A stretch of 48,140 nucleotides of DNA, counting the filler, from Jimgerdemannia flammicorona (Eukaryota): assembly GCA_003990765.1 (NCBI GenBank). It is 2 parts of 2 records of this genome, joined end to end, with 100 filler letters (N's around TTAATTAATTAA, not from the genome) between each part and the next. Parts side by side here need not be neighbours in the genome. Positions count along the whole stretch, not along the records: positions 24,121 to 48,140 come from RBNJ01001031.1; 1 more part is not named here. The stretch is one strand, 5' to 3'. Position numbers and translations under genes: made by a program. Position 1 is the first letter of the stretch; each line of letters opens with the position of its first letter. Shown here in pieces: positions 5,671 through 46,568 of the stretch. The notes below the pieces were generated by a model, which ran no database searches, was not told the origin of the DNA, and saw nothing but the letters and a program-made list of their open reading frames with translations.

Positions 5671-5777
5671 GTCAGCTTGCTTGCTGGTTGATATCTCCTT
5701 AATATCTTTCTCCAATAAATGCTTTGAAAGTATGTTGTAAAGTATGTATAATGTGAATTGTAGTGGAGAGAGATGTC

Positions 5778-10697: not shown

Positions 10698-11279
10698 GAC
10701 TCAAACCACTTGGAGCGAGCTAAGCCACACAGGCATCTTTCAGCAAAAGACAATACGTTTTCAAGTTTTTATTTCGAACATACTGGTGCACATCGTGGGG
10801 CAGGAGTCTACCTACAAGGCATAACAAGTTTCATGGAAAATGGTCAAGTTTTGGTGACATGGCTAGTCAAGATTCCTCTAGCTCTGAGCATCTGGTAAGG
10901 AGGGGGCTGGGTTTGGATATTCCCAAGAGCTTTGCAGCTGCTGCCAAGACTGGTGTGACTGCAGGAAGGGCTGGTGGACAGGAGAGGACTGGGGGAATTG
11001 AGGCCTGGCATACAGTGGTTAGAAATAGGAGGGCTGCAGTTAGGCCCATGGAGGTTAGACAGGGGGGGCATAGTGTTGACAGGGGGAGGGGTCAGGTGAT
11101 GAGTCAGGTGACAGGTCAGGTGGCTGGCAGGGGACAGGGGTCTGGTGGTGGGATGCTGGGGACTGGTTCTTCTGTGGCTGGGCAGATGGCTGGGGAGAGG
11201 ACAGCTGGTCGCACAGCCATGCCTGGTGGGACAACTGCAGGTATTTTAGGGACTAAGAGAAAGGTGACTCTGGTGGCAG

Positions 11280-12350
11280 AACTTCTTACTCTCAAACCAT
11301 ACTGGTCAAAAGGTCTAGGTGGAAATTGGATCCCTACAGTGCAGGGGAAGGGGGGCCATCAGTGCCCCAAGGTTGGGTGTGCCAGAAGCAGCAAAAGAAG
11401 AGAAGTCCAATGGTGTCAAGTTGCCTCAACCTAAAGGCTACAGTTTTCAAGAATTCAAGAGTTTTGTATGCTCTGGTGGGCTGCAGGATGTGGGTCAGGC
11501 CCTTAGGCTTTCTTTCACTCAGGGGGGGGACTCTCACTGTATCCTCAAGGCATAGAGGTGTACTGAGTGATTTCAGAAGGGGCTTGGAGAATTTCGGAAG
11601 GTGCAGCTGGTGATTGGCTAAGATGGATGATGTGATTTTGAGACATATGGTGATGGTAGCTAGTGATTGGTAGATGCAGGATGGTGTGATTCAAGATGGC
11701 AGTGAAGATTGGGCCAGGCGATTGGCTATTGATGGTGTGATGATCAGCAGGGAGATCAGCAGGTGACTACTTTGCCGCTTTGGGGAGAGAGGAGCCGGTA
11801 GGCTGGGTGCATACTACAGGGGTACTCGAGGTGCTGGAGTCACATCCAGTGGCTCTTTAGGATAAGACCAGGTATGATGGCGGTATCACTTGAGGTACTG
11901 GTATCATAAGCCAGATGGTAACTTCTGACTCAGAGTTGGGAAGAGAGAGTAGCAGTCAGATGGCAGACCCATTCATTAAGTATGTAAGCTGGCACTGGGC
12001 AGCCAAGGTAAGGTGGAGTAACTCATGGTTGGGGATTATCAGGCCTGTATGCCATTTCATTTCTCTATATTATATATATTATTTATATGAGGGGGCCGGT
12101 TGTGGCCTTGGTGGTGCATTGTTATTGGTGGGGAGGGGGGGGTGAGAGTAACTCAGGGCAGAGAGAACCTGGCCCTGGCCACCTTGGCCTTGCCAAGATT
12201 AGGTGTCGGGTAGTCCAAGGCTACTCTTTTCAGGACCTGACCCCACTTACTTTCTTGTCAGGTAATCCGGGGGATGTTTTCCCACTGTTCACTATATAAC
12301 TATATTTGGAATAAATGAGTGTAGAAAAAAAAAAAAAAAAAAAAAAAAAA
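11280..12350 (+). mobile_element. Non-autonomous poly(A)-tailed retroelement 'D' (~1.05 kb, no recognisable protein)
   Basis: Flanked by AGGTGACTCTGGTGG(C/T)AG at 11262-11279 and 12351-12368. AATAAA lies just before a ~27 nt A tail. No EN or RT motifs in any frame. Confidence 0.85.
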
Positions 12351-15300
12351 AGGTGACTCTGGTGGTAGGGACAGGTGAGTTGGTGGTGAGGCCTTTCTTC
12401 CACAAATCAGTGTTGACATGGGCAGTCTTGGTGAACTTCCTGGGATTGGTGATATCAGCAAGAGAGGTTCTGTGGCTGGTGGGGGAGGAAGTGGCTGGGG
12501 CAGAGTCTCTGAAGTTCATCCCTTCAGCAGAGGCTGTGGAGATTGGATTTGTGGAGGAGGATGCAATGGTGAAGGTGCTGGAGAAAGGGATGGTAGTCAA
12601 GGGTATCCAAATTGGGATGGCAAGGTATCTGAGGTGAGATCCATGTGCAGTTCGGCTGGTGGTGGAGGGATTGCCAACCCTGGGCAGACAGGAGACCAAG
12701 GAGATGGTGGTAGAGGCACTGAGAGGATATGGTGAGATAGTGGACTTCAGGTTCATGTTCTGAGAGGGCACCAAATTGAGGAATGGTAACTGTGAGGTGA
12801 TGCTGCAACTGGAAGGCAAGGAGGCTACTGGGCTGGGCCATGATTGGCCTGAAGGGATTAGAATTGGGGGGTAAGAGTGCAAGGTGTGGAGAAGGATGGA
12901 AGCAGAACAGGAGGAGGAAGAGTTGGCAATTACTCTGGAGGAGAGAGAGGCTGCCAAGGAGCTGCGAAAGAGGAAGTGGGAGGAGTTCGCCAAGGATTGG
13001 GTCTGGATTGAGACTGATGGCAAGAGGAAGAGGTAGAGGAAAGAGAACTGGGAGGGTCTGCAGGCAGCCCTTCAAGAGGCAGCTGTGGAAGAGGAGGCAA
13101 GAGCAGAGGTGGCCAAGAATCAGATGGAGGGAGTGGAGGCAGCAGAGGTATCCTTTTCCCAGCTGGGTGGTGTAGAGAACTTGGCACATGTGCCGGTGAG
13201 AGGAAAGTGGGTGGATAAGGAGGAGGTTGGTGGAGGGGACTTTGAGGTCGATAATGAAGTGGTGCTGGAGACTCAGGTGGAGGATACCCATATGGCTGAG
13301 GCAACAAATATCCATTGGGAGTATCCAGAAGCTGGTGAGGTTATTTATTTGGAGAAAGTTGCAGAGGAGGATAAGCTGGTAGATGTGGCTTCTGATTTGT
13401 CGGCAGACAGAGAGCAACTGCAAGAACTGAGCAGAACCCCCAGGCCTTCAACTCCTGGGCCCCTGGTGATGATGGCAGAGAGCAGGTATCAGGCAGTACT
13501 TCAGGAGCTGGCAGAGGAAGACATCAAGGAAGTGGATATATTTCATAGATCTCAGAAGGCATGGGAAGGATTCCTCAATATAGTGATGCAGGGACCTAAG
13601 CTGGTGATAGCAATGGTTGCCACCCTTCTGGATGATGAAGGATATGATATTGACAAGAGCAGAATGGCTGACATCAGGAAGGTAGCAACTGAGAGAGTGG
13701 ATCTTTTCTGCAGCAGTGCCAATGGTGATCAAATCTGGAGGGCAATTTGCGAGGACTAGCAGGAGATCATTAGAGGAAGGGCTGAAAAGGTTGTGACTGT
13801 CCCAGCTGAGCTTTAAACAATTTCCTTTATGATGATGAACAATCTACATATTTTGTTGATTAATGTCAATAGATTGTGGGATGGTGTCAAAAGACAGCAG
13901 CTTTTCAGATAGCTTAAAGTCAGGAGATATGATGTTGTATTTCTTCAGGATGTTCAAGCTTATGGTAAGTTGGACTATGAGATGTGGAGTAAAGAATGGT
14001 ATGGTAGAGCAGGTTGGAACAAGCAGGTGGGCATCTTGTTTGGTGTAGGCAAAGCTGAGCTGGTGGAGGTAGAGATCTTTGATGACAGACTGATCTGGGG
14101 ATGACTAAAAGATGGGGCAGGTGATGGCTTGATGGTTGGCTTGGTTTATCTCCCTGTAGTTGGCAGAGAACAAAAGCAATGGGTTGAGAGATGGCATATA
14201 TGGAATGGTCAAGAGGTAGTTGTTTTGGACATTCTGGGGGAGGACTTCAATATGGTGCATGATCATACACTAGATAGGTCTGATGGTGGAGCAGGAGTCA
14301 TGGTATCTTCTGTATTTTCTCAATGACTGCAGGTGGAGAGTGACATGGGTTTGGTAGATGGCATTTGTCAATGACAGTGGGATAAGTTGGGACCTTTCAC
14401 CAGGTAGCATCCAGTTGGAACAGTATTGGTTGAGATACATATTGATTGGGTGTTAGTAGCAGAGCACTGGGGCAATATACTGGACACTGCTGGGGTATAC
14501 TGGTGCCCTTGGTCTGATCACTGGGGAGTGGAGGTTTGTGGTAGATTCCAAGCAGCAAGCAGTGGTAGAGGGTGCTGGTGCCTCAATGTAGCCTTACTCA
14601 AGAGGAAGAAGGAGAGAGACAATTTTGTGACAGTTATGCTACAGGAAGTTTTGCGATGGCAGAATAAAGGGCAGTTGATAGCAGAATGGTGGGGTAGATT
14701 CAAACATTTGGCTAGTGCTTACTGGTATGATGTTGGGGAAGTGGCTGGAAAGAAACAGAAGGACAAGGAAAGGAGAGTAGAGAAGGGGCTGAGATGGTAA
14801 TTGAAGCTTTTGGAAAAGGGGTACTTGTCTGGAGAGGTGCACCACCAGTTGGTAGTAGAGGTGGCAGAGCTGCAGGCAGATTTAAGGGTGTCTGAGACTA
14901 GAGTGGTGGACAGCCTGCTGGCTAGACTGAGAGCTAGAAGGTTGGAAGAAGGAGAGAGGCCGACAAGATATCTGTCTGGTGTTTTGAAGACCTGGAGAGT
15001 ATGTCATAGTTGGGCCTCAGTATTGTGCGAAGATGGAGTAGAGGTCTCTGGAATTGCTGACATGTTAGGGGAGGTATCTGGTCAATAATAAGCTCTTTAG
15101 CAGGATGGTGGAGAGCATGCTGAAGTTACTGGGCATGGGGAGGATAATGACAATATGGTGACCAATTGGCCAGTAACAGCAATACCCAAGATAGGGGAGG
15201 CAGTTATGGGGGAGGTGTCTCTGGATGAAGTATTGGAAGTACTGAGGAAGACATAGACTGGTTCATCTGGGTTGCCCTGGGAATTCTGAAAGGAGTTCAA

Positions 15301-23340: not shown

Positions 23341-23447
23341 TTTTTTTTTTTTTTTAGACTCATATCTCATGGAATTTTATTGGAAGAGAACCTAGACTAT
23401 ATAGGCCAAAACCCTCTCCCACTACCCACCAAGCACTGCCCCTCCAT
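23341..23447 (-). mobile_element. 3' end of a family C element (poly(T) on the + strand)
   Basis: Reverse complement matches 31925-32019 (GGCAGTGCTT...TTTGGYCTATATAGTCTAGGTTCTCTTCYAATAAAA...GAGTCT-polyA). Confidence 0.85.
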
Positions 23448-23481
23448 TAGTGCATCACAACCTGAGCCGACCCATGTACAT

Positions 23482-23790
23482 ATTTAACCTGACCCAGAAT
23501 TATACGTCACCCATCTTTAACCCGACCCGGAATTATACATCACCCGTCTTTAACCCGACCTGGAATAATACGTCACCCGTCTTTAACCTGACCTGGAATA
23601 ATATGTCACCCGTCTTTAACCCAACCTGGAATTATACGTCACCCATCTTTAACCCGACCTGGAAACGTACGTCACCTGTCTTTAACCCGACCCAGAATTA
23701 TATGTAACCCGTCTTTAATCCAACCCGAGAAATATATGTGACCTGACCCGAGAAATATACGTGACCTGACCCTGACCCGTATTTAACCCG
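23482..23790. repeat. 33-bp tandem repeat (TTTAACCCGACCYGGAATTATACGTCACCCGTC, ~7 copies plus decayed ACCCGA units); probably the subterminal array of a hAT-like DNA transposon starting TAGTGC at 23448
   Basis: Periodicity is directly visible and gives an 11-aa periodic translation. It begins abruptly inside the C fragment with TAG, a typical hAT terminus. Confidence 0.75.
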
Positions 23791-24480: not shown

Positions 24481-25772
24481 TATAGTAATTCATACATATG
24501 GTTTAACTCACAATAATATACACTCTCTCAAAGTAATCAAGCATATCTAATGTACTTTTTACACTACTATCTATAGAGGATACTATAATAATAGTCTCAA
24601 TATCAGATATAGCTTCAACAAGTATAGTTACAAGACAGTCTCATTACAGTCTGAGAAAGAAAAAGAAAAAGCACAAGAATACTCTAGTATTTGAAAGGAG
24701 TTTACAAAGGAGTATAAGGAAAATAGAGATATCCAAATTAAATATAACTACTATAAAGTATTATATAAGGCTATTGATAGTTCAACAATAAATTTATAAG
24801 TGCATTTTGATAAATATTATAAGAGTCATTAAAAAGAAGGGGAGATAGAGTTATTTTTTTTTCATAAGTATGTTTTTATAACTTGTCTACTTTTTTTTTT
24901 TTTTTTTTCTTATTAATTTATTGCTACTTTATATTATTTGAAATAGCCAAAATTCTCTATACCATTATTTTGCAAAAAGCTTGTTCACTGGATAATCTAT
25001 AATAATCAGACACTTTCTCTACTACCTTACTGGTCACAATAGTTTGGTAGGCAACCTTCTGAGTCTACTTTTCACAATTATTACCCTCTCTACCTTAGGT
25101 TGATTTGCTGTATCTCTTACAGAGCAGTGGGAGAGAGGCAATGGTGATGAGTTACCCCTTTATCAGTATCAGATCAGTGTCTTCTCAACTTTTTCATAGT
25201 TTCTGGTGCCTTTGGCTGCATCTGGAGTACATCTGTTTTGGTGTGGTGCCTTCTTCCTTTTACTGTCACCAACAAGGTACTGTCTTGGTGTGTCTCAGGC
25301 TATGTAGGGAGTCAGCCAACCTTGGGTATCAAGTACTCAGTATAGGTTACCTGCAGGTTCTTGGTATCTGTAGTGGGGCCCTCTGACTTTAGCGAGCTTC
25401 CTGGTGAGCATGGTTCTGGCATAGATGACTACTTTTCAGATGTTGTCAGAATGGGAGGGGAGATGGCCATCACAGATAGGAGGAAGGGTGATAATGGTGA
25501 ACCAGTAGGGTGCTAGGCTGGGGGCGGTCATCGGGGCTGGGGCAGGTGCTACTTCAGTGGGGCCTTTTGATTGATGCAGTGCAGTTAGGTGGTAGGTGTC
25601 AAAGGACCTTTTGCTCGAACCATTCAGAGCAAGCTAAGCCACACGGACATCTTTTCGTGACAAGCAACATGTTTTCAAGTTTTCCCGTCATCTATTCTGG
25701 TGTACAAGGTGCGGCAGGAGTCTAGCTACAGTATACAATAAGTCTCATCGATTTTGGTGGAGTTTTCATTGG

Positions 25773-27607
25773 ATGGCGACCCAGGGTTCATCAAGCTCTG
25801 AGCATTTGGAGAGGAGGAGGCCTGGTCTGGGTCTCCCCAAGAGTTTTGCGGCGACAGTTGGAGCAGGTGTAGGGGTAGGAGGAGTAGGTGGTCAGGGGGG
25901 GCAGGCTGGCATTGCAGGTTGGCACACAGTGATGGGGGGCAGGAGGGCGGCTACTAGGCCCATGGGGGGGGACATAGTGTTGACAGGGGTAGGGGTCAGG
26001 TGACCGGCCAGGTGATGGGTCAGGTGACTGTTCAGGTGCCTACTAGGGGCCAGGGGTCCGGAAGTAGTGTGTCTGGGACTGGTATTCCTGGGGCTGGGCC
26101 AGTGGCTGGGGTGACTGCTGGAGTATCGGAGAACAAGAAGAAGGTGACAATGGTAGCTGGATCTGGTGAACTGGTGGTGCGTCCCTTCTTCCACAAATCA
26201 GTGTTGATGTGGGCCATATCGGCTAATTTTTTGGAGCTGGGGATGTCTGTGAGAGAGGTCCTGCAGCTAGTTGGAGAGGAGATTGCAGGGGCGGAGTCGC
26301 TGAAGTTCATCCCTTCAGCTGAGGCAGTTGAGATAGGATTCGTTGAGGAGGAGGAGATGGTGAAGGCCTTAGAGAAAGGACTGGTCATCAAGAGAATCAA
26401 GGTTGGCATGGTGAGGTGCCTGAGGTGGGACCCATGGGCAGTACAACTGGTAATTGAAGGGCTGCTGACATTGGGGAGACAGGAGACCAAAGGAATGATG
26501 GCAGAGGCACTGGGGGCATTTGGTGAGATGGTTGACTTCGGGTTCATGTTTTGGGAGGGGACCAAGTTGAGGAATGGCAACTGTGAGGTGATGGTGAGGC
26601 TGGAAGGCAAGGAGGCTACGGGACAAGGGAGGGACTGGCCAGAAGTAGTTCGCATTGGAGGACAGGAGTGCAAGGTATGAAGAAGGAAGGGCTCGGAACA
26701 GGAGGAGGAGGAATTGCTAGTCACCCTAGAGGAGAGAGAGGCTGCGAAGGAATTGCGAAAGAGGAAATGGGAGGAGTTTGCCAAGGATTGGATCTGGATT
26801 CCGACTGATGGGAAGAGGAAGAGGTGGTGAAGGGCAAACTGGGAGCGTCTGCAGACAGTCCTCCAGGGCTCGAAAAAGGAGGAGGAGGAAAAAGCAGAGA
26901 TGGCCAAAAGTCAAATGGAAGAGGTGGAGATGGCTGAGGTGTCCTTCTCACAACTGGGGGGTGTGGAGGATTCTACTCATGTACCAGTGACAGGGAAGTG
27001 GGCAGATAAGGAGGAGGCAACCACTGGGGGCTTTGAGGAGGTTGTCAAGATAGTACCAGAGACCCAGTTGGAGGATGTTCACATGGCGGGAGTGGCGAAT
27101 GTGTATTAGGAATGCCCAGAGGCAGGTGAAGTGGTTTGGCTGGAGAAGGGCACTGAGGAGGACGATCTGGTGGATGTGGCTTCCGATGTATCAGCGGATA
27201 GAGAGATGCTGCAGGAGCTGAGTAGGACTCCAAGGCCTGCCACCCCGGGGCCCATGGTGATGATAGCAGATGACTGGTATCAGGCAGTGCTCGAGGAACT
27301 TGTGGAGGAGGATATCAAGGAAGTGGATATATTTAATAGATCGCAGGAGGCCTGGGAAGGGTTTCTCAACGTGGCATTGTAGGGGCCAAAGTTGGTGACA
27401 GCAATGGTGGCGGCACTTCTGGATAACGAAGGGTATGAGGTTGATGAGGACCATATGGCTGAAATCAGGAAGGTGGCATCAGAGCGAGTGGCAGTCTTTT
27501 GCAATGGGGTGAATGGAGCACACATCTGGAGGGGTATCTGTGAGGAATGGAAGGCTATTATTTGCAGTAGGGCTGAGAAGGTGGTGGCGAACCCAGTGGA
27601 AATTTAA
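25773..27607 (+). pseudogene. B3 ORF1 (frameshift near 25970, several stops)
   Basis: MATQGSSSSEHLERRRPG...KSFAA; homologous to B2 ORF1 through to the stop at 27607. Confidence 0.88.
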
Positions 27608-27619
27608 ATATTTACATTC

Positions 27620-30600
27620 ATGATGATGAACAGTCTATATATATTATCACTAAATGTCAATGGTTTATGTGATGGAGTGAAGCAAAGGCATTTGTTTTGG
27701 TGGCTGAAGAACAGGAGATATGACTTGATATTTCTGCAGGACATTTGGGCCTATGGGGAGCAAGATTATGAGGAGTGGAGCAAGGAATGGTATGGGAGCA
27801 TAGGGTGGAATGAGCAGGTGGGAATTCTGGTTGGCTTGGGGAGAGGAGAGCTAAAGGAGGTCGAGAGATATGGTGATTGATTGGTCTGGGAGAGACTAAA
27901 AGGAGGTGCAGGCGATGGGCTTGTAGTTGGCTCAGCATATCTGCTAGCGGTTGGCAGAGAGTGAAACCAATGGGTAGAAGGTTGGCTAGATTGGGAAGGC
28001 TGAGAGGAGATTGGGCTGGACATTTTGGGAGGAGACTTCAACATGGTTCGTGACAGGACATTAGATAGGTCTGATGGTGGAATCAGCGTGGCAGTTTCTA
28101 CAGGGCTCTCATGATAGCTTCAAGTGGAGAAGGAAATGGGATTAGTTGATGGAGTACAACAACGTCAAGGGGAGAAGTCAGGGCCATTTACTAGGTGGCA
28201 TCCAGTTGGTGAGGATTTGGTTGGTACAAGGATTGATTGGATTTTGGTAGCAGAATACTGGGGTAATGTTTTGGATTCAACTGAGGTACGGTGGTGTCCC
28301 TGATCAGATCACTGGGGTGTAGAGGTGTGTGGGAGATTTCAGGCAGCCAGTGGTGGTGGAGGCAGATGGCGACTTAATGTGGCATTACTCAAGAGACAGG
28401 TGGAGCGGGACCAGTTTGTCAAAATTGTAAGACAGGAAGTAGCATGGTGGAAGAATAGTGGCCAGTCAATAGCACAGTGGTGGGGGAAATTTAAACATCT
28501 GGCAGGTGCATTCTGGCATGATGTAGGAGAGATAGCAGGAAGGGAGCAGAAGGATAGAGAGAGGAGAGCAGAGCAGGGGCTGTGCTGGCGGTTGAGACTT
28601 TTAGAGAGAGAGAACCCCTCAGGGGAATAGCGCTCCCTGTTGATCAAGGAGGTGGCAGAGTTGCAGTCAGATTTGAAGGCTGCAGAAGATAGAGTGGTGG
28701 ATGGGTTGCTGGCAAGATTGCGAGCCAAGTGGTTGGAAGAAGGAGAGCGACCCACCAAATACTTGTCTGGCATCTTGAAGGCAAGAAGGGTGAGGCACAG
28801 CTGGGCTTCTGTGTTGTGGGAGGATGGTACTGAGGTGACTGATATCTCAGACATGCTTGGGGAGATCTCTGGTTGATGGTGCACCCTGTGGCAGGATGAT
28901 GGAGGGCTGATGGAGGGAGAGGCAGCACTGGAGGACAATAACAATTTGGTCGGCAGCTGGCCAGTGGTGGCAGAGCCGGCAATTGGTGGGGCAGTAATGG
29001 GCAGGGTGTCCCTTGAAGAAGTGTTAGAGGTTCTGAGGAAAGTGCATACTGGTTCATCACCAGGGGAGGATGGACTGCCTTGGGAGTTCTGGAAGAAATT
29101 TCAAACTGAGCTTGGGGAATAGCTGGTGGAAATGGTGAACTTTACACTGGGGGAAGGCTGCTGGATTGGCAATGGCTCCTTAGGGCTAGTCTCTCTGCTC
29201 TATAAGGAGAAAGGGGACAGACATGTGTGGTGGAACTGGAGACCCATCATGTTACTGAATGTGGATAGGAAGTTGGTCTCTAAGATTCTGGCAGGGAGAA
29301 TGCAACAATGGATTGGCCAATTGGTGGGTGATGAACAGCAAGGGTTTGTGAAGGGGAGGCAGATTAGAGACAGTACAGTATGGGTGCAAAATGTTTTGGA
29401 AGGTTGTTGAAGTCAGCAAGTAGATGGGAGGATGGTGTTTTTGGACCAGGAGAAGGCTTATGATAGGGTGCGGTGGAACTACTTGGAGGCGGTTCTATGG
29501 AAGGCCGGGTTTGATATGGGGGAGGCTCAAAAGCTGATGGGTCTGGTACGAGGTTGCCAGGCTGCAGTGTTGATGAATGGGTGGAGTGGCCCGGAGTTCC
29601 TCTTAGGGCGAGGTGTGCCACAGGGAGATCCTCTCTCACCCCTGCTTTATATTTTATCTTTGGAGCCCTTGTTGGTGTGGTTGAGGGGGAGGCTTACCAG
29701 ATTGAAAATGGGGGATGTGGTCTGGAAGATGGGGGCCTTTGCAGACGATATGGTAGTAGGGTTAGACAGTGTGGAAGATGTGGCGAGCTTACAGAAAGAG
29801 ATAGGACAGTATGAGACACTGGCAGGAGCAAAGCTGAACTGGGGCAAGTACGAGACTATGGAGCTTGAAGCTGGATTGGGGGAGCATGGACATTTTGGAC
29901 AATTGGTTAGACCTGGGGAAGCAGTTTGATATCTGGGCATCTGGTTCTCGGTTTATGGGATGGTGCTGCCAAAAGAGTGGTGGTGTGGAATGATACAGAA
30001 GTGGGAGAATGCCTTGGTGGGCTGGTCTGGGAGGGGCTTCTCCTTGGTTGGGAGGATTGTAGTTTTGAATGTATACTGGTTACCGAAGTTGTGGTACTTG
30101 GGGTACCACCTGAACTTTCCAGGATGGGTAATTCAAAAGCTGAAGAAGGTGGTCAAAGGATGGCTGTAGTAGGGAAGGAGATCGCAGATTAGTTGGGAAA
30201 TTATGGTAATGGCGAAGGCAGATGGAGATCTGGGGTTGGTGGACTTCAGAAGGCGGCTGAAGGTACTTCGAGGCTGGTGGGGTTGTTGAATGGCAGAATT
30301 AGGAGGGGAGGGTTGGAGCAAACTGGCTATGGACAACTGGGAAGTTCGGTTCTGCCCCCGGAGCGAGGTTTGGAAGGACATGTGAGGTTTGCTCTAGGTT
30401 GGAAGGGTTAGCAGGTTACATTATAGGAGATTTTGGTGGGGTATTGTAGAAGCTTGGCTAGTAATGGGCCTCATGGGCCCAGAACCTGGCAAAGAAGAGG
30501 AGGACCCAGATCGATGATAGTGGCAATTTGGTGTGATTCATATTGGCGGCTGCCCGTTGCTCTTTGTCTGAGGCGATGGAGTGGATCCGGACAGGTCTAC

Positions 30601-31251
30601 TTGAGAGGTGGCCAGTTGGTTGGCAGAAGGCTGGGTTTGGAGAAGAATGGGAGTGGGGTCGGGTTTGGGGCTGGGAGACCTCACTACTCAAGATTGCCCT
30701 GTCCAAGTTCTGGGTGGTATAGTGGTGATTTCTGTGGAGGAACATCATGCTGGGGTACAGGATGGGGTGGATGGTAGAAGAAGGTGTAAGGGAATGTGAG
30801 TGGTGTTGTGAGCTGGATGGGGGAGTAGTGCAGACTCTGGAGTATGTTCTGGTGGCCTGTCCAGGGGTTGAAGGATTTTGGTAGACATTGGAAGATTACT
30901 GGGGGGAGGAGAGTGAGCAGGCAGGGGGCCCCACTTGTCAGGTGGTCAAGCATCGCCTGGTGGGAGAAATTGGGGACATCTGGGAAGGCCTGGGTCGGAT
31001 TATCGGCATCTGGGTACTGATGGTGGTGCACTGGCGATGGGTGTTCAAGAGGGATCCCTGGATGGGAATTGGAGAATTGGTGGAGTGGTGGAAGGGGTTG
31101 CTCTTGGAAGTGGTGTAAGGGTGGTGGTACATATCAGGGGAAGAGGCACCAGTTGGGGGCCATGAAGAAGGTGTTAGACATTGTTCAGAGAAGTCGGGAA
31201 CACCTTGTACTTGGTGAGAAGGGGGTGAGGTGGAAAGAAGGGGTGGGCTGA
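27620..31251 (+). pseudogene. B3 ORF2 (EN-RT-Cys motif), disrupted
   Basis: SLNVNGL, FLQD, GGDFN, TRIDW, SPGEDG, LDQEKAYD, GVPQGDPLSP, AFADD, ECEWCCELDG. Confidence 0.92.
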
Positions 31252-31376
31252 ATGGCCCTTCTTTGTATTACTTTAAATAGTTATGGGTTGAGTTCATTAT
31301 TGTTTTAAAGGTAATCATAGAGATATGTGGATAGTGTTCTCTTTCTAGACTAGTGGAATAAAGGAGTCCAAGTAAC

Positions 31377-31430
<54 letters not shown>

Positions 31431-32015
31431 TGGTAGGTCTCACTCTCAGCTTCTTTTGATGATTCGGCAGGTTGGGCCTTGGTTGTCAGAGGGGGTCAGG
31501 GGGCCCAAGGCTACCTATTTCAGGCATCTTGGCTGCACTCAACTGGAACCAGAAGCTGACATGGCAATGTGATTGAGGCCTACAGGCTTGAGTAGTGAGG
31601 TATTGGAGGTCTCCTCCCACCTCATGTGTAAGTCCCCCACCCACCTCAACTGGGAGAACCAGGCCCTATCTACCATGTTGTACTTTGATGAGGGTTTTTC
31701 TTTGCCTGTCATTCTCTTTGGGGTGGTAGGGGCTATTCTATTCAGCTTGGGCATGGCCTTGTACATACATTGGGTTCTTGGGCATGCGCTTTCAGTCATT
31801 GGCATATGGCTGGGTTTCTCCTAGTAGTAGAGAGAGCATGGTGTGCAGAATGAGGTGCGGGCTGCCATAGGTCCTGCTATACCTGGTATGGTCAAGCTAC
31901 TGGACAATAGCTAGCCTAGATTAATAGGGGGGCAGTGCTTGATGGGTGGTGGAGGAGGGATTTGGTCTATATAGTCTAGGTTCTCTTCTAATAAAAATCT
32001 GCGAGACATTGAGTC

Positions 32016-32056
<41 letters not shown>

Positions 32057-32524
32057 AAAATCTGTAATAGTCAGCCTTTTACAGTTATTGAGAATTTGGA
32101 GTTAAAAGATCTCTTTTGCCTTCTGAAACTAAACATTACTATTCCTTCTACTAGAACTATATAAAATGAAATTAAACTGATCTTTAAACAGAACTGTGAT
32201 ACTGTCAAAATTATGCTACAGATAAGATCTAATATTTTAACATTAAATATCAATTCAAATTAATCTTATTTCAATTTAATTTGTTTAAAAATAGAATATA
32301 CCAGGTTGAATATCCTTTACTGTTAATATATAGATATCACTAAATATGCATATTTCTTAGAATTAATATATATTAGATCTGTCAGAATTAACAACTTAAC
32401 TATATATTGATTAATTTTGTCAAGCTATTAAAATCTCATTTGGGTGAAAATCTTGTTGATACTTTTGGAAGATGTGTTTGAGATTTTGGTATACAGATAA
32501 AGATATATAGAGAGTAAGTCTTTA

Positions 32525-32738
32525 GATCAGGTTTTTAAAAAAGATTAGGATTTTCAAAAAAGATTGAGATTTTCAAAAATTGTTAGGACTTTTGAAAAAG
32601 ATTGGGATTTTTAAAAAAGGTCAGAATTTTCAAAAAAGGTCAGAGTTTTCAAAAAAGATTGGGATTTTTGAAAAAGATCAGGATTTTTAAAAAGATTGGG
32701 ATTTTCAAAAAAGATCAGAATTTTAAAAAAAAAAAAAC
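32525..32738. repeat. ~19-bp minisatellite (AAAAAAGATTRGGATTTTY, ~10 copies) inside a probable intron of the hAT transposase
   Basis: Visible tandem units, bracketed by GTAAGT (32514) and CTCTAG (~32777); transposase motifs resume after it. Confidence 0.8.
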
Positions 32739-40509: not shown

Positions 40510-40710
40510 GCCTGTAAGCAACAAGTATAAGCTGAGAGCTTTGAATATTGTAACAAATATAGGCCCACAATTCTATAAGCAATAAGCATAAGCCAAGAGC
40601 TTTAAATATTATAATAAGCATAAGTCAAGAGCTTTAAATATTGTAATAAGTATAAGTTTCTCAATCTCATAAGTAATAAGTATAAGCTGAGAGCTTCAAA
40701 TATTATATAG
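40510..40710. repeat. Decayed tandem repeat (AAGYATAAGYYRAGAGCTTYRAATATTRTAA-like units, ~4 copies)
   Basis: GAGAGCTT/AGAGCTTT...AATATT recurs at ~40533, 40594, 40628 and 40688. Confidence 0.65.
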
Positions 40711-41678: not shown

Positions 41679-42482
41679 GATATAGATAACTGTTTTTTTG
41701 ATAGAGTCAGAATAGGAGGAGAGATAGCCATTACAGATAGAAGAAAGAGTAATTATAGTTAACCAGTGGAGTGTCAGACTGAGAGCAGTCATCAGAGCTA
41801 AAGTAGGTACTATATCAGTAGGGTCTTCTGATTGATATAAGGTAGTTAGATGATAGGTATTACTCTTGACTACTTTTGGTAATATATAGAGTTAAGCTCT
41901 GATTATTGAGGGTAGTTAGAGAGCTCAAGGCTATCTAGATCAGATGTCTTAGCTATATTTAACTAGAACTAGAAGCTGATATAGTAATATAATCAAGGCC
42001 TACAGCTTGAGTAATAGAGTATTGAGGGTCTTTTCTCACTTATATATAAGTTCTCTACTTACTTTATCAGGAGGAACTAGGTCTTACTTACTGTTCTGTA
42101 CTTTGATGGAGGGTTTTTCTTTATCTATCACTCTACTTAGAGTAGTAGAGACTATATAAATTGACTCAAGTATGACCCTATATATATATTGGAATTTCAG
42201 ATACATATATATTTTCAGTTATAGATATATGATTGCTTACTTCTTGATAATAAAAAGAGTATGATATATAGAATGAGATATAGGTAATTATAAGCCCTAC
42301 TATGTCTAATATAGTTAAGCTACTAGACAATAGCTAGCTTAGATTTAATAGAAGTATAGTGCTCAGAGGGTAGTGGGGGGGGGGAGTTTGATCTATATAA
42401 TCTAGATTCTCTTCTAATAAAATTCTATAGAACTTTAAGTTTATAAAATAAAAAAAAATAAAATAAAATAAAATAAAAAAAT
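41679..42482 (+). mobile_element. Family C copy C2, lacking its 5' ~400 nt, heavily mutated
   Basis: Colinear with 25420-25601 + 31443-32019; ends TCTATATAATCTAGATTCTCTTCTAATAAAA followed by a decayed A tail. Confidence 0.85.
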
Positions 42483-43294
42483 TCTTTAAGTTTTATATAG
42501 ATATATCTATTATATATTTTATATTTTAGAGTTTATTAAAACTATACTGAGTTTTAAGAGTACTTTGAGATAATTACTAAACAAAAAGAAGAATATAACT
42601 AAAGAAGAATAGATTATCAGATATTAGATATCTTATATCTAAATTACTATTACCAAGTAGGTTTATAAACTATTTAAGAATAATAAGCAAGCTCTAGCTT
42701 ATTTCTGAGAAGTAGTCTTAGGGGATTTTTGGCAGATAAAGAGATATTATTAAAAGAATATAATTAAATAGATTATATAATATAAGAATTTACTATTGAT
42801 CAAAGCTTAGAAGTTTGAATAAGATAATTTAGAGATAAAATTACTTATTCAGAAGAAAGTTGTAATAGTTAATTCAAATTAAAAAGTATAATTAGAGAAT
42901 TATAATATATATCTAAATTTGATTTTGATATATTATAATATTATAGTTAGCAGTCACTTGATCTTATTGTTGTATAATTTGTATAATTTATATAATTATA
43001 TAAAAGTATAACTATACAAAACTTATAATTATACAGATTGTACAAATGTATAATTTGTATAGATATATAGATCTTATAACTATATAAAATAACTTATAGA
43101 AAAAGAAGTTTTAACTTAGCTACTATATAACTAGTAAACATATATAAATATTTCTAATATTTAGAGTAAATAAACTTTATATCAAAATAGTTCAAGCAAA
43201 GAGATAAGAAAATAGTAAGCCTGTAGACAGATATATATACTTCAAACTCATCTACTTTTATATCTAAGGACTTTAAGAAGTTAAAGAAGATTAC

Positions 43295-44761
43295 CTCCTT
43301 TCTCTGCTATCTTACTGATCATAAGGTTTGATAGATAATCTTCCAAGTCTCCTTTCCTCTATTATTATTCCCTCTACCTCAGATTGGTTTGCTATATCTG
43401 CAGAGGCATAGTGGGAGGAGAGCAATAGTAATGAGTTGCTCTTTTATCAGTGTCTAATCAGTCTTCTCTACTTTTTTATGAATTCTGATATCTTCAGCTA
43501 TATCTGAGATATATCTGTTTTGGTATAGTATCTTCTTTCTTTTGCTATTACTAATAAGGTATTGTCTCAGTATATCATAGATTATATAGAGAGTTGGCTG
43601 ATCTTGGACATCAAGTGCTCAGTATAGATTATCTGCAGGTTCTCAGTATTTATAGTGGAGTCCTCTGGCTTTGGTAAACTTTCTAGCAAGTACAGTTCTG
43701 ACATAGATGACTGTTTTTCAGATATTGTTAGGATGAAAGAGGAGATGGTCATCACAGATAGGAGGAAGGGCAATTATAGTGAATCAGTAGGGTGCCAGGC
43801 TAGGAGTAGTCATCAGGGCTAGGATAGGTAGTGCTTCAGTGGGGTCTTTTGATTAATATAGAGTAGTTAAGTGATAGATATCACTCTTGGCTTCTTTTGA
43901 TGATATGTGGAATTAGGCCCCAGTCATTAGAGAGGATCAAAAGACTCAAGGCTATCCATTTTAGGCATCTTGGCTATACTCAACTGGAACTAGGAGCTGA
44001 TACAATAATGTGATCAAGATCTGCAAGCTTGAGTAGTAGAGTATTGGAGATCTCCTTCCACCTCATATATAAGTTTTCTACTCATCTCATCTAAGAGAAC
44101 TAGGTCCTATCTACTGTGATATACTTTGATGAGAGTTTTTTCTTTGCCTGTTATTCTCCTCGGGGTGACAAGGGCTATTCTATTTAGCTTAAGTATAGTC
44201 ATATATATATTGGGGTCTTGGGTGTATACTTTCAGTCATTGGCATATGGCTGAGTTCTCTCTGATAGTAAAGAGAGTATAGTATATCCCTTTGACTATAG
44301 ATAAGATTGTCTTTTAAAATCATTTAGCAGACAAATTAAAGTTTGAAAAAAATGATTTTTTGAAACATTGTTTTTCTGTTAAAAATATATCTCAATTTGT
44401 TTAAAAAATATATTTTTTTTTTTTTGTAAAATTTTTATCAAAAGTAGAATTATTATATAAAAAATTATTGGTAAATTTTTTTTTAAAAGCTATTATGATT
44501 TTAAAAGTTATAAACTTTTAAAATCTTGCCTCTAAATATAGGTGCAAAACAGTCAAAGAGATAGAATGAGATATAGACTACTATAGGTCCTACTGTGTCT
44601 GATATAGTTGAGCTACTGAATAATAACTAACCTAGATTAATAGAGAGACAGTACTTAATAGATAGTAGAGGAGGGTTTTGATCTATATAGTCTAGGTTTT
44701 CTTCCAATAAAAATCTATAAGACTCTGAGTCCATAAAAAAAAAAAAAAAAAAAAAAAAAAA
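43295..44761 (+). mobile_element. Family C copy C3, full length, carrying a MITE-like insert
   Basis: Starts CTTTCTCTGCTATCTTACTGATCA like C1 (CTTTCTCTACTACCTTACTGGTCA) and is colinear through to the poly(A) at ~44735-44761. Confidence 0.88.
44287..44560. mobile_element. MITE-like DNA element (274 bp) with short TIRs and an apparent 2-bp AT duplication
   Basis: Left end CCCTTTGACTAT; right end ACAGTCAAAGAG (rc CTCTTTGACTGT). Absent from C1 and C2 at this site; AT-rich interior. Confidence 0.75.
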
Positions 44762-45258: not shown

Positions 45259-46568
45259 ATGGCCACTCCGCTAGGACCCGAGTACTTTCGCCCAGACTGG
45301 GCCTTCAGCCGAGACAACTTCCTCAAGGAGATGGACACCATCCCACTCTTCATGACCAAAATGCCTGACGACGCCGAGGAAAATCCCATGCTGGCCGCAC
45401 TGCAATCGCTGGCGTATGACGGGACGCCTGAGGGTGCGTTTGATTTTTGTTTTCTCTTTGGCATGTGTTTACAGAATATTTGTAAATGTGGACTGGACGC
45501 TAACCAATCGAACCGAACCCGACAACCACAGAGGTCGCGGAGAACTTCAAGAACCAGGGCAATGACGCCTTCAAGTCTAGCAAATCTGGGTACGCAGACG
45601 CCGTGCGGTTCTACACGCAGGCCCTCGCCACGGACTGCAAGGACTCCAAAATTATGGAAGCCTGCCACGCGAACCGTGCCGCTGTCAACCTCGAGCTCCG
45701 TATGTCGCGCTAAAATCTCAGTCCTAACTCGATTCTTCCACCCTTCTTCCTTCTAACCGCTCGCTTACTTTTTAGAAAACTACGGCATGGTCCTGAAGGA
45801 TTGCGCAAAGGCACTCGGATACAACCCGCGCAATATCAAGGTCCTGTATCGCTCGGCGCGGGCGTTGTATGCGCTCGACCGGGTGGACGAGGCGATTGAT
45901 TGCTGCGATCATGCGTTGGCGGTCGAGCCAGAGAACGTGGCGGTTAAGGCGCAGAGGGAGAGGTGTGTGGAGGGGAAGAGGATATTGGAGGAGAAGAGAA
46001 GGGTCGCGGAAGAGAGGGAGAGGAGGGAGAGCGAGAGGAAAGAAGCGTTGGCGAAAGCTATTGAGGTAAGTTTCTGCCTGGCATGTGTATGTGTCTTCCG
46101 CCAAACCAGTTCCTCACCTCCCTACCGTGTCCGAAATCTCCACACCAGTCCCGCGGCATCAAAATCGAGACCCCTGACGCTACCGCCCTGTCTACAGCCA
46201 ACATCGTTCTAGACCCTTCCACTGACACGTTAACATGGCCAGTCTTCTTTCTGTACCCGGAGTACAAAGAGAGTGACCACATCCAAGCCTTTGACGAGAC
46301 ACACACCTTCCAGGACCACTTGGACGTGATCTTCGAGCACCCGGCGCCCTGGGATCAACGTGAGAACTACACAGCCAGGGGGGTCGAGGTCTACTTCGAA
46401 CACAACGCTGGTCTGCACCCAGGGTTGGTCAAAGTGGGGAAGAAGCTGCCGCTCGGGGAGGTGCTTAAACATCCCAAATATGTTGTGCAAAATGGGATAC
46501 CGAGTTTTATTGTGTTACCCAGAGAGGGGCCGTTTAAAGAGGAATTTTTGGCGAGGTACAAGAAGTGA
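45259..46568 (+). CDS. CNS1: Hsp70/Hsp90 co-chaperone Cns1/TTC4 (TPR + wheel domain); exons 45259-45433, 45532-45699, 45776-46065, 46149-46568
   Basis: GT..AG introns join in frame: PLFMT..LAALQSLAYDGTPEEVAENFKNQGNDAFK..ANRAAVNLELQNYG..KVLYRSARA..LTWPVFFLYPEYKESD..APWD. These are hallmark Cns1/TTC4 motifs. Confidence 0.93.

What the first reader, a model, noticed from the sequence alone, without database searches (positions are those of the whole stretch)
25010..32058. Family C: a ~1.17 kb non-coding, LINE-mobilised retroelement present four times
Seen: C1 (reassembled across B3) and C3 start at the same 5' position and have the same ~1.17 kb length, AATAAA and poly(A). C1 has a 16-bp TSD, the same size class as the LINE TSDs. 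Partial copies lie at 23341-23447 (-) and 41679-42482. No EN/RT motifs and no tRNA/5S/7SL head were evident by eye; it starts with a pyrimidine-rich motif like the LINEs. Inference: a long Pol II-type non-autonomous element parasitising the local L1 machinery, unlike classical Pol III SINEs and little described in fungi.
Basis: partly seen in the sequence, partly recalled or inferred. Interest (0 to 1): 0.72.

Follow-up and report, generated by a model that had tools for sequence, protein, structure and literature searches.

The report
Non-coding retroposons wearing partner-LINE heads
A 1.17-kb gene-less jumping element, present in thousands of copies in a fungal genome, is pasted in by the enzymes of full-size LINE retrotransposons, and it and a distant sister family each begin with the same first letters as a different LINE family, which makes it a new variant of a known kind of hitch-hiker element.

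Summary
Confirmed. Family C is a real, high-copy, non-coding retroposon in a fungal genome: 2,720 exact tail-motif hits against 0 control, copies of 1,150-1,175 nt, poly(A), and target-site duplications of 11-21 bp in 22 of 29 copies. 22 of 29 assessable unbiased copies are full-length. No tRNA or Rfam head, no conserved ORF, no unusual RNA structure. One correction: C3 spans 1.47 kb because a MITE-like insert splits it.

New here: C's first ~16 nt match the 5' end of LINE family A. A distant paralogue, family D (also ~1,166 nt, one copy in this window), instead matches LINE B's head at 20 of 24 nt and weakly its tail.

Pol II transcription and the function of the heads are inferred; expression was not tested. 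The kind is known (Sadhu, Blumeria Eg-R1/Egh24, NARTc), so 'little described in fungi' is overstated. Earlier notes of this scan describe similar ~1.2-kb elements elsewhere in this genome (e1-7552570, e1-7507835). Verdict: new variant of a known kind; interest 0.48.

The parts
24994..25009 (+). Left copy of C1 target-site duplication (16 bp)
   Evidence: matches 32059-32074 at 14 of 16
25010..25601 (+). C1 5' half: pyrimidine head matching LINE A's 5' end (about 25010-25026), motif shared with family D right behind it, second shared motif with the AUG at about +132 (near 25141)
25602..31427 (+). LINE B3 (decayed two-ORF element, APE endonuclease plus RT family, poly(A)) inserted into C1 with a 15-bp duplication; its head is the type matched by family D
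31428..32058 (+). C1 3' half, AATAAA at 31990-31995, poly(A) from 32020
   Evidence: joined C1: 1036 matches, 114 C>T/G>A changes, 19 other differences against the family majority
32059..32074 (+). Right copy of C1 target-site duplication
41679..42482 (+). C2: 5'-truncated, heavily decayed copy (majority positions 409-1169), degenerate A tail
43294..44761 (+). C3: full-length decayed copy, AATAAA 44706, poly(A) 44735-44761, about 10-bp duplication
44287..44559 (.). AT-rich MITE-like insert inside C3 (short terminal inverted repeats, TA duplication)
   Evidence: a 129-bp piece recurs in locus L121 at 84%
23341..23449 (-). C4: 3' fragment (majority positions 1072-1168) with A tail
11279..12351 (+). 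Family D copy (paralogue of C; internally shortened, 1,046 nt plus poly(A)) inserted into a B-type LINE with a 17-20-bp duplication; head matches LINE B
5760..5775 (-). 5' terminus of LINE A1, matching the head of family C

Best explanation
Family C is a non-autonomous, non-coding retroposon. A full-length copy is transcribed from a promoter inside its own 5' end, most likely by RNA polymerase II, and polyadenylated after AATAAA (inferred). The RNA is captured in trans by the endonuclease/reverse transcriptase of a poly(A)-type, L1-like LINE and inserted by target-primed reverse transcription, giving 11-21-bp duplications and some 5'-truncated copies (footprint shown; enzyme inferred). Its first ~16 nt are those of LINE family A, and the distant sister family D carries LINE B's head and a B-like tail (sequence match shown). 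The most likely reading is that the head is a LINE-derived start-site/promoter module, kept by co-descent or gained by template switching, which lets C be transcribed when and where A-lineage LINEs are (inferred, about even odds that it is functional and partner-specific). All sampled copies are now decayed by C>T/G>A mutation.
For: Footprint: duplications in 22 of 29 full-length copies with both flanks, median 15-16 bp counting leading A; 5 of 5 truncated main-type copies also show 11-18-bp duplications; LINE B3 and family D give 15-17 bp. Own promoter: 22 of 29 assessable copies picked only by their tail are full-length, with unrelated flanks and a sharp start. Against Pol III: no A box, one B-box-like word at +721, eight runs of 4-5 T, no tRNA/Rfam head. 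Non-coding. Head match: first 25 nt of C align to LINE A's first bases (12 of 13; 0 of 200 shuffles reach the score) but not to B (p 0.31); D aligns to B (20 of 24 anchored; 0 of 200) but not to A (p 0.31). The 13-nt head motif has 2,750 hits against 52 control; of the first 100 listed I counted 74 C-type, 23 LINE A-type and 3 other, and 9 of the 23 A-type heads equal C's 13-mer exactly. C-D homology: global score 320 against 234 +/- 18 in 100 block shuffles; a shared 19-nt motif has 2,169 hits, 0 control, 98 C and 2 D among the first 100. LINE RT is closest to human L1 ORF2p (E 6e-29) against R2 (E 1e-9) among solved structures.
Against: No transcript, cap or start-site data. T4-T5 runs may not stop fungal Pol III (recalled: yeast needs longer runs). 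C shares no significant 3' tail with any of 19 LINE 3' ends tested (lowest p 0.135; C-A p 0.50), so the partner is indicated by the head alone. All four heads are pyrimidine-rich and partly alike (C-B 12, D-A 13, C-D 14, A-B 11 matches in up to 24 nt). The D-B tail match is moderate (p 0.006 for 90 nt but 0.13 for 120 nt with AATAAA fixed, six comparisons each). C looks older than the sampled A copies (CpG decay 0.50 against 0.36; 0 of 21 unbiased C copies sit in A, B, C or D against 21% LINE cover in a 200-kb sample; both samples are biased), so the driver may have been an earlier A-lineage LINE. The L1-clade label rests on a PDB comparison whose hits were only L1 and R2 proteins, not on a tree.
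Confidence: 0.8

Rival explanations
1. C and D are very old internally deleted or rearranged LINE derivatives (bipartite non-autonomous LINEs): head and tail come from the parent LINE and the body is an unrecognisable LINE remnant. D fits with LINE B; C has lost or exchanged its A-type tail.
For: D matches B at both ends: head 20 of 24; tail p<=0.005 for 7 of 9 B-type ends. C 200-600 gives borderline local scores against the 5' 900 nt of both A and B (p 0.04 and 0.035).
Against: No C body match to ten A-copy sequences, near full-length and mostly lacking the last ~100 nt, and none beyond low-complexity hits against the window LINEs; the borderline scores are G-rich and not partner-specific; the motifs shared by C and D occur in no LINE among the first 100 hits. 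Largely compatible with the best explanation; it differs only on the origin of the body.
Confidence: 0.3
2. The head is only a generic host initiator/pyrimidine motif used by all these elements; the C-A and D-B pairing is convergence or chance and any poly(A)-type LINE mobilised C.
For: All heads are pyrimidine-rich and cross-match at 11-14 positions. No partner-specific nesting: C flanks A 3, B 3 of 54; D flanks B 6, A 4 of 17. L1-type enzymes recognise poly(A) in a relaxed way (PMC3747384, passages).
Against: The pairing is reciprocal: the diagnostic core differs between C and D exactly as between A and B, and D also repeats B's first five bases. The second half of the statement (any LINE can mobilise C) is not excluded.
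Confidence: 0.25
3. C is an amplified processed pseudogene or retrocopy of one cellular mRNA or lncRNA, with no mobility of its own.
For: mRNA-like anatomy (AATAAA, poly(A)); first AUG of the commonest C type and of D lies in a conserved motif at about +131-135.
Against: Several subfamilies with diagnostic changes and a swapped 3' interior mean successive source elements; thousands of copies; no ORF constraint; no Pfam hit for 9 of 9 frames; the single protein hit is a 78% identical unnamed product of a 903-nt contig that reads like another C copy; Atlas hits all under 0.9.
Confidence: 0.05
4. C is a long Pol III SINE with a degenerate tRNA/5S/7SL head, or a ribozyme-headed element.
For: T runs are only 4-5 long.
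Against: ARAGORN 0 genes in 13 of 13 loci; Rfam no gathering hit in 6 sources and one chance-level hit at E 0.78 in 5 loci; no folding window with z below -1.3 in 30 windows of C and D (pseudoknots not modelled).
Confidence: 0.07

Closest known systems
Sadhu retroposons of Arabidopsis (PMC2848041, passages read; PMC4494074, passages read)
   Same: About 0.9-1 kb, non-coding, poly(A), 7-16-bp duplications, no small-RNA head, no Pol III boxes, conserved 5' motif and pyrimidine tract, divergent subfamilies, LINE mobilisation inferred from target sites.
   Different: In the passages read no LINE partner or LINE-matching 5' end is named; C is fungal, has thousands of copies, and its head matches a co-resident LINE. 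No sequence homology was tested.
Eg-R1 and Egh24 / BG_Non-LTR of Blumeria (PMC6022598 and PMC10648671, passages read)
   Same: Fungal, high copy (657 and 884 bp; 1,667 and 2,129 full-length copies), non-autonomous; Eg-R1 lacks A/B boxes, has AAUAAA, is taken as Pol II-transcribed; family members conserved in their 5' region.
   Different: Eg-R1 insertions lack a genomic poly(A) whereas C has one; the LINE families listed there are Tad1; Eg-R1 encodes the ROPIP1 peptide, C shows no ORF constraint. No sequence comparison was run.
NARTc/L1Tc and RIME/ingi of trypanosomatids (PMC1874656, abstract read; PMC2996970, passages read)
   Same: Non-autonomous element shares the 5' terminus of its LINE, which in L1Tc is an internal Pol II promoter starting at +1.
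   Different: There 77 nt are shared and the short element resembles the LINE along its length; here only 13-24 nt are shared and the body is unrelated to the LINE.
Bipartite ORF-less non-autonomous LINEs such as Bov-A (PMC5786205, passages read)
   Same: Family D has both a LINE B head and a B-like tail.
   Different: That paper reports them only from RTE, Ingi, Vingi and R2 clades; L1 gives the ORF1-coding HAL1. Here the LINEs look L1-like, the LINE-derived parts are very short, and C lacks a LINE tail.
SVA of primates (PMC4494074, passage read)
   Same: Long, Pol II-transcribed, L1-mobilised non-autonomous retroposon.
   Different: No VNTR or composite Alu/ERV parts in C.

Membership tests
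LINE-mobilised non-autonomous retroposon | 3' poly(A) and variable 7-20-bp target duplications | tested here: met
   22 of 29 copies, 11-21 bp
LINE-mobilised non-autonomous retroposon | 5'-truncated copies with intact 3' end | tested here: met
   7 of 29 assessable tail-selected copies; duplications in 5 of 5 main-type ones
LINE-mobilised non-autonomous retroposon | No EN/RT or other conserved ORF | tested here: met
LINE-mobilised non-autonomous retroposon | Mobilisation in trans shown experimentally | not testable with these tools
   needs a retrotransposition assay
Classical SINE (Pol III) | tRNA/5S/7SL-derived head | tested here: not met
Classical SINE (Pol III) | A and B boxes near the 5' end | tested here: not met
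   no A box; one B-box-like word at +721
Sadhu / Eg-R1-type Pol II retroposon | Pol II-made, capped, polyadenylated transcript starting at +1 | not tested
   no reads were laid; only AATAAA, T runs and full-length excess point to it
Sadhu / Eg-R1-type Pol II retroposon | Sequence homology to Sadhu, Eg-R1 or Egh24 | not testable with these tools
   no Repbase/Dfam or eukaryotic nucleotide library; Sadhu's published 5' motif is not C's head
Bipartite non-autonomous LINE | 5' end from the partner LINE | tested here: met
   C-A 12 of 13 nt, D-B 20 of 24 nt; short
Bipartite non-autonomous LINE | 3' end from the partner LINE (family C) | tested here: not met
   0 of 19 LINE tails significant; C-A p 0.50
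Bipartite non-autonomous LINE | 3' end from the partner LINE (family D) | tested here: inconclusive
   7 of 9 B tails p<=0.005, also 2 of 7 A tails at p 0.02-0.04; p 0.006 at 90 nt, 0.13 at 120 nt
HAL1 | Encodes ORF1p | tested here: not met
   no conserved ORF; no match to ten A-copy sequences
L1 clade (for LINEs A and B) | APE endonuclease plus RT grouping with L1 | tested here: inconclusive
   Pfam APE and RVT_1; best PDB hit human L1 ORF2p (family A only); no tree built; no zf-RVT hit
Ribozyme-headed retroposon | HDV-like or other self-cleaving fold at +1 | tested here: inconclusive
   no Rfam hit, no folding signal; no pseudoknot search was run

The most novel reading that the evidence does not exclude
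C and D are two branches of one fungal ~1.17-kb non-coding retroposon lineage that has split along with, or switched between, two L1-like LINE lineages, each branch keeping the 13-24-nt 5' terminus of its own LINE. Partner choice would then be set at the 5' end (shared start-site factor, or recognition of the RNA head by the LINE proteins) instead of at the 3' tail as in classical SINE/LINE pairs, and the system offers a natural head-swap experiment for how L1-type elements start transcription and complete full-length insertions.
Probability: 0.35. Interest if true: 0.72.

Novelty: new variant of a known kind. Interest (0 to 1): 0.48.

Why it matters
It adds a major, probably unannotated repeat family (at least 2,720 and by motif recall roughly 4,000-8,000 copies, about 2-4% of the assembly) and a paralogue to a small class of long non-Pol III retroposons. 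The reciprocal head match (C with LINE A, D with LINE B) is a sharp, testable clue to a minimal LINE promoter or 5' recognition signal in fungi. If D is confirmed as a bipartite derivative of an L1-clade LINE, it would extend a type that a 2018 survey listed only for four other clades.

Tried and rejected
Antisense ORF seen by eye in C1: broken in the family majority, longest minus-strand frame 110 codons. Longest sense AUG frame: neutral. Structured RNA: no window below z -1.3. C tail shared with LINE A or B: not significant. A 10-nt B/D head pattern was too short to inform (1,228 hits against 1,404 control). Partner-specific nesting: inconclusive. Young copies: only 5 genome-wide hits keep three tail CpGs; the three of them that are full-length are 85-91% identical to the majority, one is a 250-nt piece at 91% and one a 40-nt piece. 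Other genomes: 0 hits for the tail motif and 1 chance-like marine hit for the paired motifs in metagenome contigs; own-genome records may be left out there. Expression: no RNA holder on record was listed, two runs guessed as RNA; no reads were laid, so this is no evidence either way. Host identity: Atlas and protein search of the neighbouring Cns1-like gene gave no taxon; 88 Zn2Cys6 domain hits show a fungus. The window's '11.3-12.35 kb LINE 3' part' was first taken as part of a B-type LINE and proved to be a separate insertion, family D.
Full report
Setting. The window is a nest of decayed G-rich LINEs next to a Cns1/TTC4-like gene. The genome G000 (231 Mb, 35,354 contigs) is fungal: 88 Zn2Cys6 domain matches. 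The LINEs carry APE endonuclease and RT domains; the RT region of family A is closest to human L1 ORF2p (E 6e-29) and far less to R2 (E 1e-9) among solved structures. With poly(A) tails and ~15-bp duplications I call them L1-like; no tree was built.

Observation. The four copies are real. C1 is split by LINE B3, which made a 15-bp duplication inside it, so C1 is older than B3. C1 itself has a 16-bp duplication (14 of 16 identical). C3 is full-length but carries a ~273-bp MITE-like insert, so its span is 1.47 kb. C2 and C4 are 3' pieces.

Family size and anatomy. The 5' half of C1 gave 5,228 first-look candidates, 40 scored. Of the 30 loci fetched I dropped three (the query itself, one cut by a contig end, one interrupted) and aligned 27: 1,150-1,175 nt, 86-91% identical to a CpG-restored majority of 1,169 nt. 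A 31-nt tail motif has 2,720 exact hits and 0 control hits. Motif recall (18 of 27 for the tail, 6 of 22 for an internal motif, 11 of 22 for the head) puts the family at roughly 4,000-8,000 copies; a 200-kb sample of long contigs held only one copy, so the distribution is uneven or the estimate is high. The first 30 tail hits in contig order, chosen without regard to the 5' end, gave 22 full-length and 7 truncated copies, one not assessable. Among 29 full-length copies with both flanks, 22 have duplications of 11-21 bp, median 15-16 counting leading A; a few extra bases, mostly ending in G, lie between duplication and head (G in 36 of 55 at that place). This is the footprint of target-primed reverse transcription. 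There are at least two main subfamilies, a beta form with a replaced 3' interior, and a rarer gamma form, so several source elements were active in turn.

Non-coding. The majority has no stop-free frame above about 140 codons on either strand. The longest AUG frame (95 codons from +132) is intact in 1 of 27 copies, against 1.2% under neutral decay, and substitutions show no third-position bias (0.073, 0.108, 0.099). Nine frames of one C and one D copy have no Pfam hit. One protein search found a single unnamed 93-aa product that reads like another C copy. No tRNA in 13 of 13 loci, no Rfam gathering hit, one chance-level hit at E 0.78, no folding window below z -1.3. There is no A box, one B-box-like word at +721 and eight runs of 4-5 T. 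Pol II transcription from an internal promoter is therefore the best inference, supported by the excess of full-length copies with unrelated flanks, but no transcript data were obtained.

The LINE-matched head. LINE A begins sharply with a pyrimidine motif in 20 fetched loci. The first 25 nt of C align to A's first bases at 12 of 13 positions and no shuffle of 200 reached the score; against B the score is ordinary. The 13-nt motif has 2,750 hits against 52 control; of the first 100 listed I counted 74 C-type, 23 A-type and 3 other. Following a weak hit at 12093-12234 led to a second family, D, with one copy at 11279-12351 inside a B-type LINE. Of 20 D loci, 15 gave full-length copies of 1,165-1,168 nt (two set aside, three without the head motif) with 15-17-bp duplications in 6 of 8. 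D is homologous to C: global score 320 against 234 +/- 18 in 100 block shuffles, with two shared motifs, one right behind the head and one around the AUG at about +131. The second has 2,169 hits, 0 control, and is C (98) or D (2) in the first 100; the first is preceded only by C-type or D-type heads, or truncated forms of them, in the 100 listed. D's head matches LINE B at 20 of 24 anchored positions and not A. D's last 120 nt also resemble 7 of 9 B-type tails at p<=0.005, and 2 of 7 A-type tails at p 0.02-0.04; with AATAAA held fixed the D-B value is p 0.006 for 90 nt and 0.13 for 120 nt. C matches none of 19 LINE tails and its body gave no hit in ten A-copy sequences, near full-length and mostly lacking the last ~100 nt.

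Mechanism. Shown: retroposition footprint, non-coding body, reciprocal head matches, C-D homology. Inferred: capped Pol II RNA from an internal promoter, capture through the poly(A) tail by an L1-like ORF2 protein (relaxed recognition as reviewed in PMC3747384, passages), and a LINE-derived start module gained by co-descent or template switching. Against a simple 'current A drives C' picture: C is more decayed than the sampled A copies (CpG decay 0.50 against 0.36), 0 of 21 unbiased C copies sit in A, B, C or D while 9 of 23 D copies sit in LINEs, and nesting shows no partner preference. These samples are biased by search rank and contig length, but they suggest that C's burst came earlier, under an older A-lineage LINE. 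The heads also cross-match at 11-14 positions, so a generic initiator cannot be excluded.

Known relatives. Sadhu in Arabidopsis is the closest in anatomy (PMC2848041, passages; PMC4494074, passages). In fungi, Eg-R1 and Egh24 of Blumeria are high-copy elements of this broad kind and Eg-R1 is described as Pol II-transcribed (PMC6022598, passages; PMC10648671, passages). A LINE-shared 5' promoter is known from NARTc/L1Tc (PMC1874656, abstract; PMC2996970, passages). A 2018 survey lists ORF-less bipartite LINE derivatives only for RTE, Ingi, Vingi and R2 (PMC5786205, passages). Nine searches (listings seen) showed no report of paralogous fungal retroposons with heads matched to different LINEs; the library lacks most subscription papers, no supplements were read, and Repbase and Dfam could not be searched. 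Earlier notes of this scan describe ~1.2-kb poly(A) elements on other pieces of this genome and a LINE-headed minisatellite element; I did not check whether they are C or D, and a sequence look-up found none.

Verdict. A genuine, abundant, non-coding LINE-dependent retroposon of a known broad kind, with one new and testable feature: two sister families that each wear the head of a different LINE. New variant of a known kind; interest 0.48.

Noticed in passing
window 11279-12351 (+): Family D copy, a paralogue of C with a LINE B-type head, inserted into a B-type LINE; 289 first-look candidates in the genome.
   Followed up: yes
all C copies: Decay is almost wholly C>T/G>A on both strands, in the order CpG 0.49, CpA 0.175, CpC 0.10, CpT 0.02; C2 and C3 have fallen to 32-37% GC while C1 is at 49%. 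Suggests methylation-driven or RIP-like mutation of varying local strength.
   Followed up: partly
window 44287-44559: AT-rich MITE-like insert with short terminal inverted repeats and a TA duplication inside C3; part recurs in L121.
   Followed up: partly
L037, L040, L053, L055, L060, L049: Beta subfamily of C: same 5' half and tail, replaced 3' interior with a ~70-nt tandem duplication.
   Followed up: partly
L185, L187, L190, L191, L202, L204, L207, L050: Older gamma form of C with an A-type head and a D-like next motif; no A run of 10 or more found in the seven loci.
   Followed up: partly
3' ends of LINEs A, A2 and B (window 21570, 31379, 39281): Distant LINE families share the same last ~17 nt before poly(A), which neither C nor D has.
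   Followed up: partly
window 1-24000: Deep nesting of LINEs within LINEs (A1 in a B-type copy, B2 beside another, D in a B-type copy); LINE A covers 17% and B 4% of a 200-kb sample.
   Followed up: partly
window 23479-23790, 32524-32731, 40520-40707: Short tandem arrays (about 29-bp, 21-bp and other units) in AT-rich spacers.
   Followed up: no
window 45260-46568 (+): Intron-bearing Cns1/TTC4-like gene (TPR plus Wheel domain) about 0.5 kb downstream of C3.
   Followed up: partly
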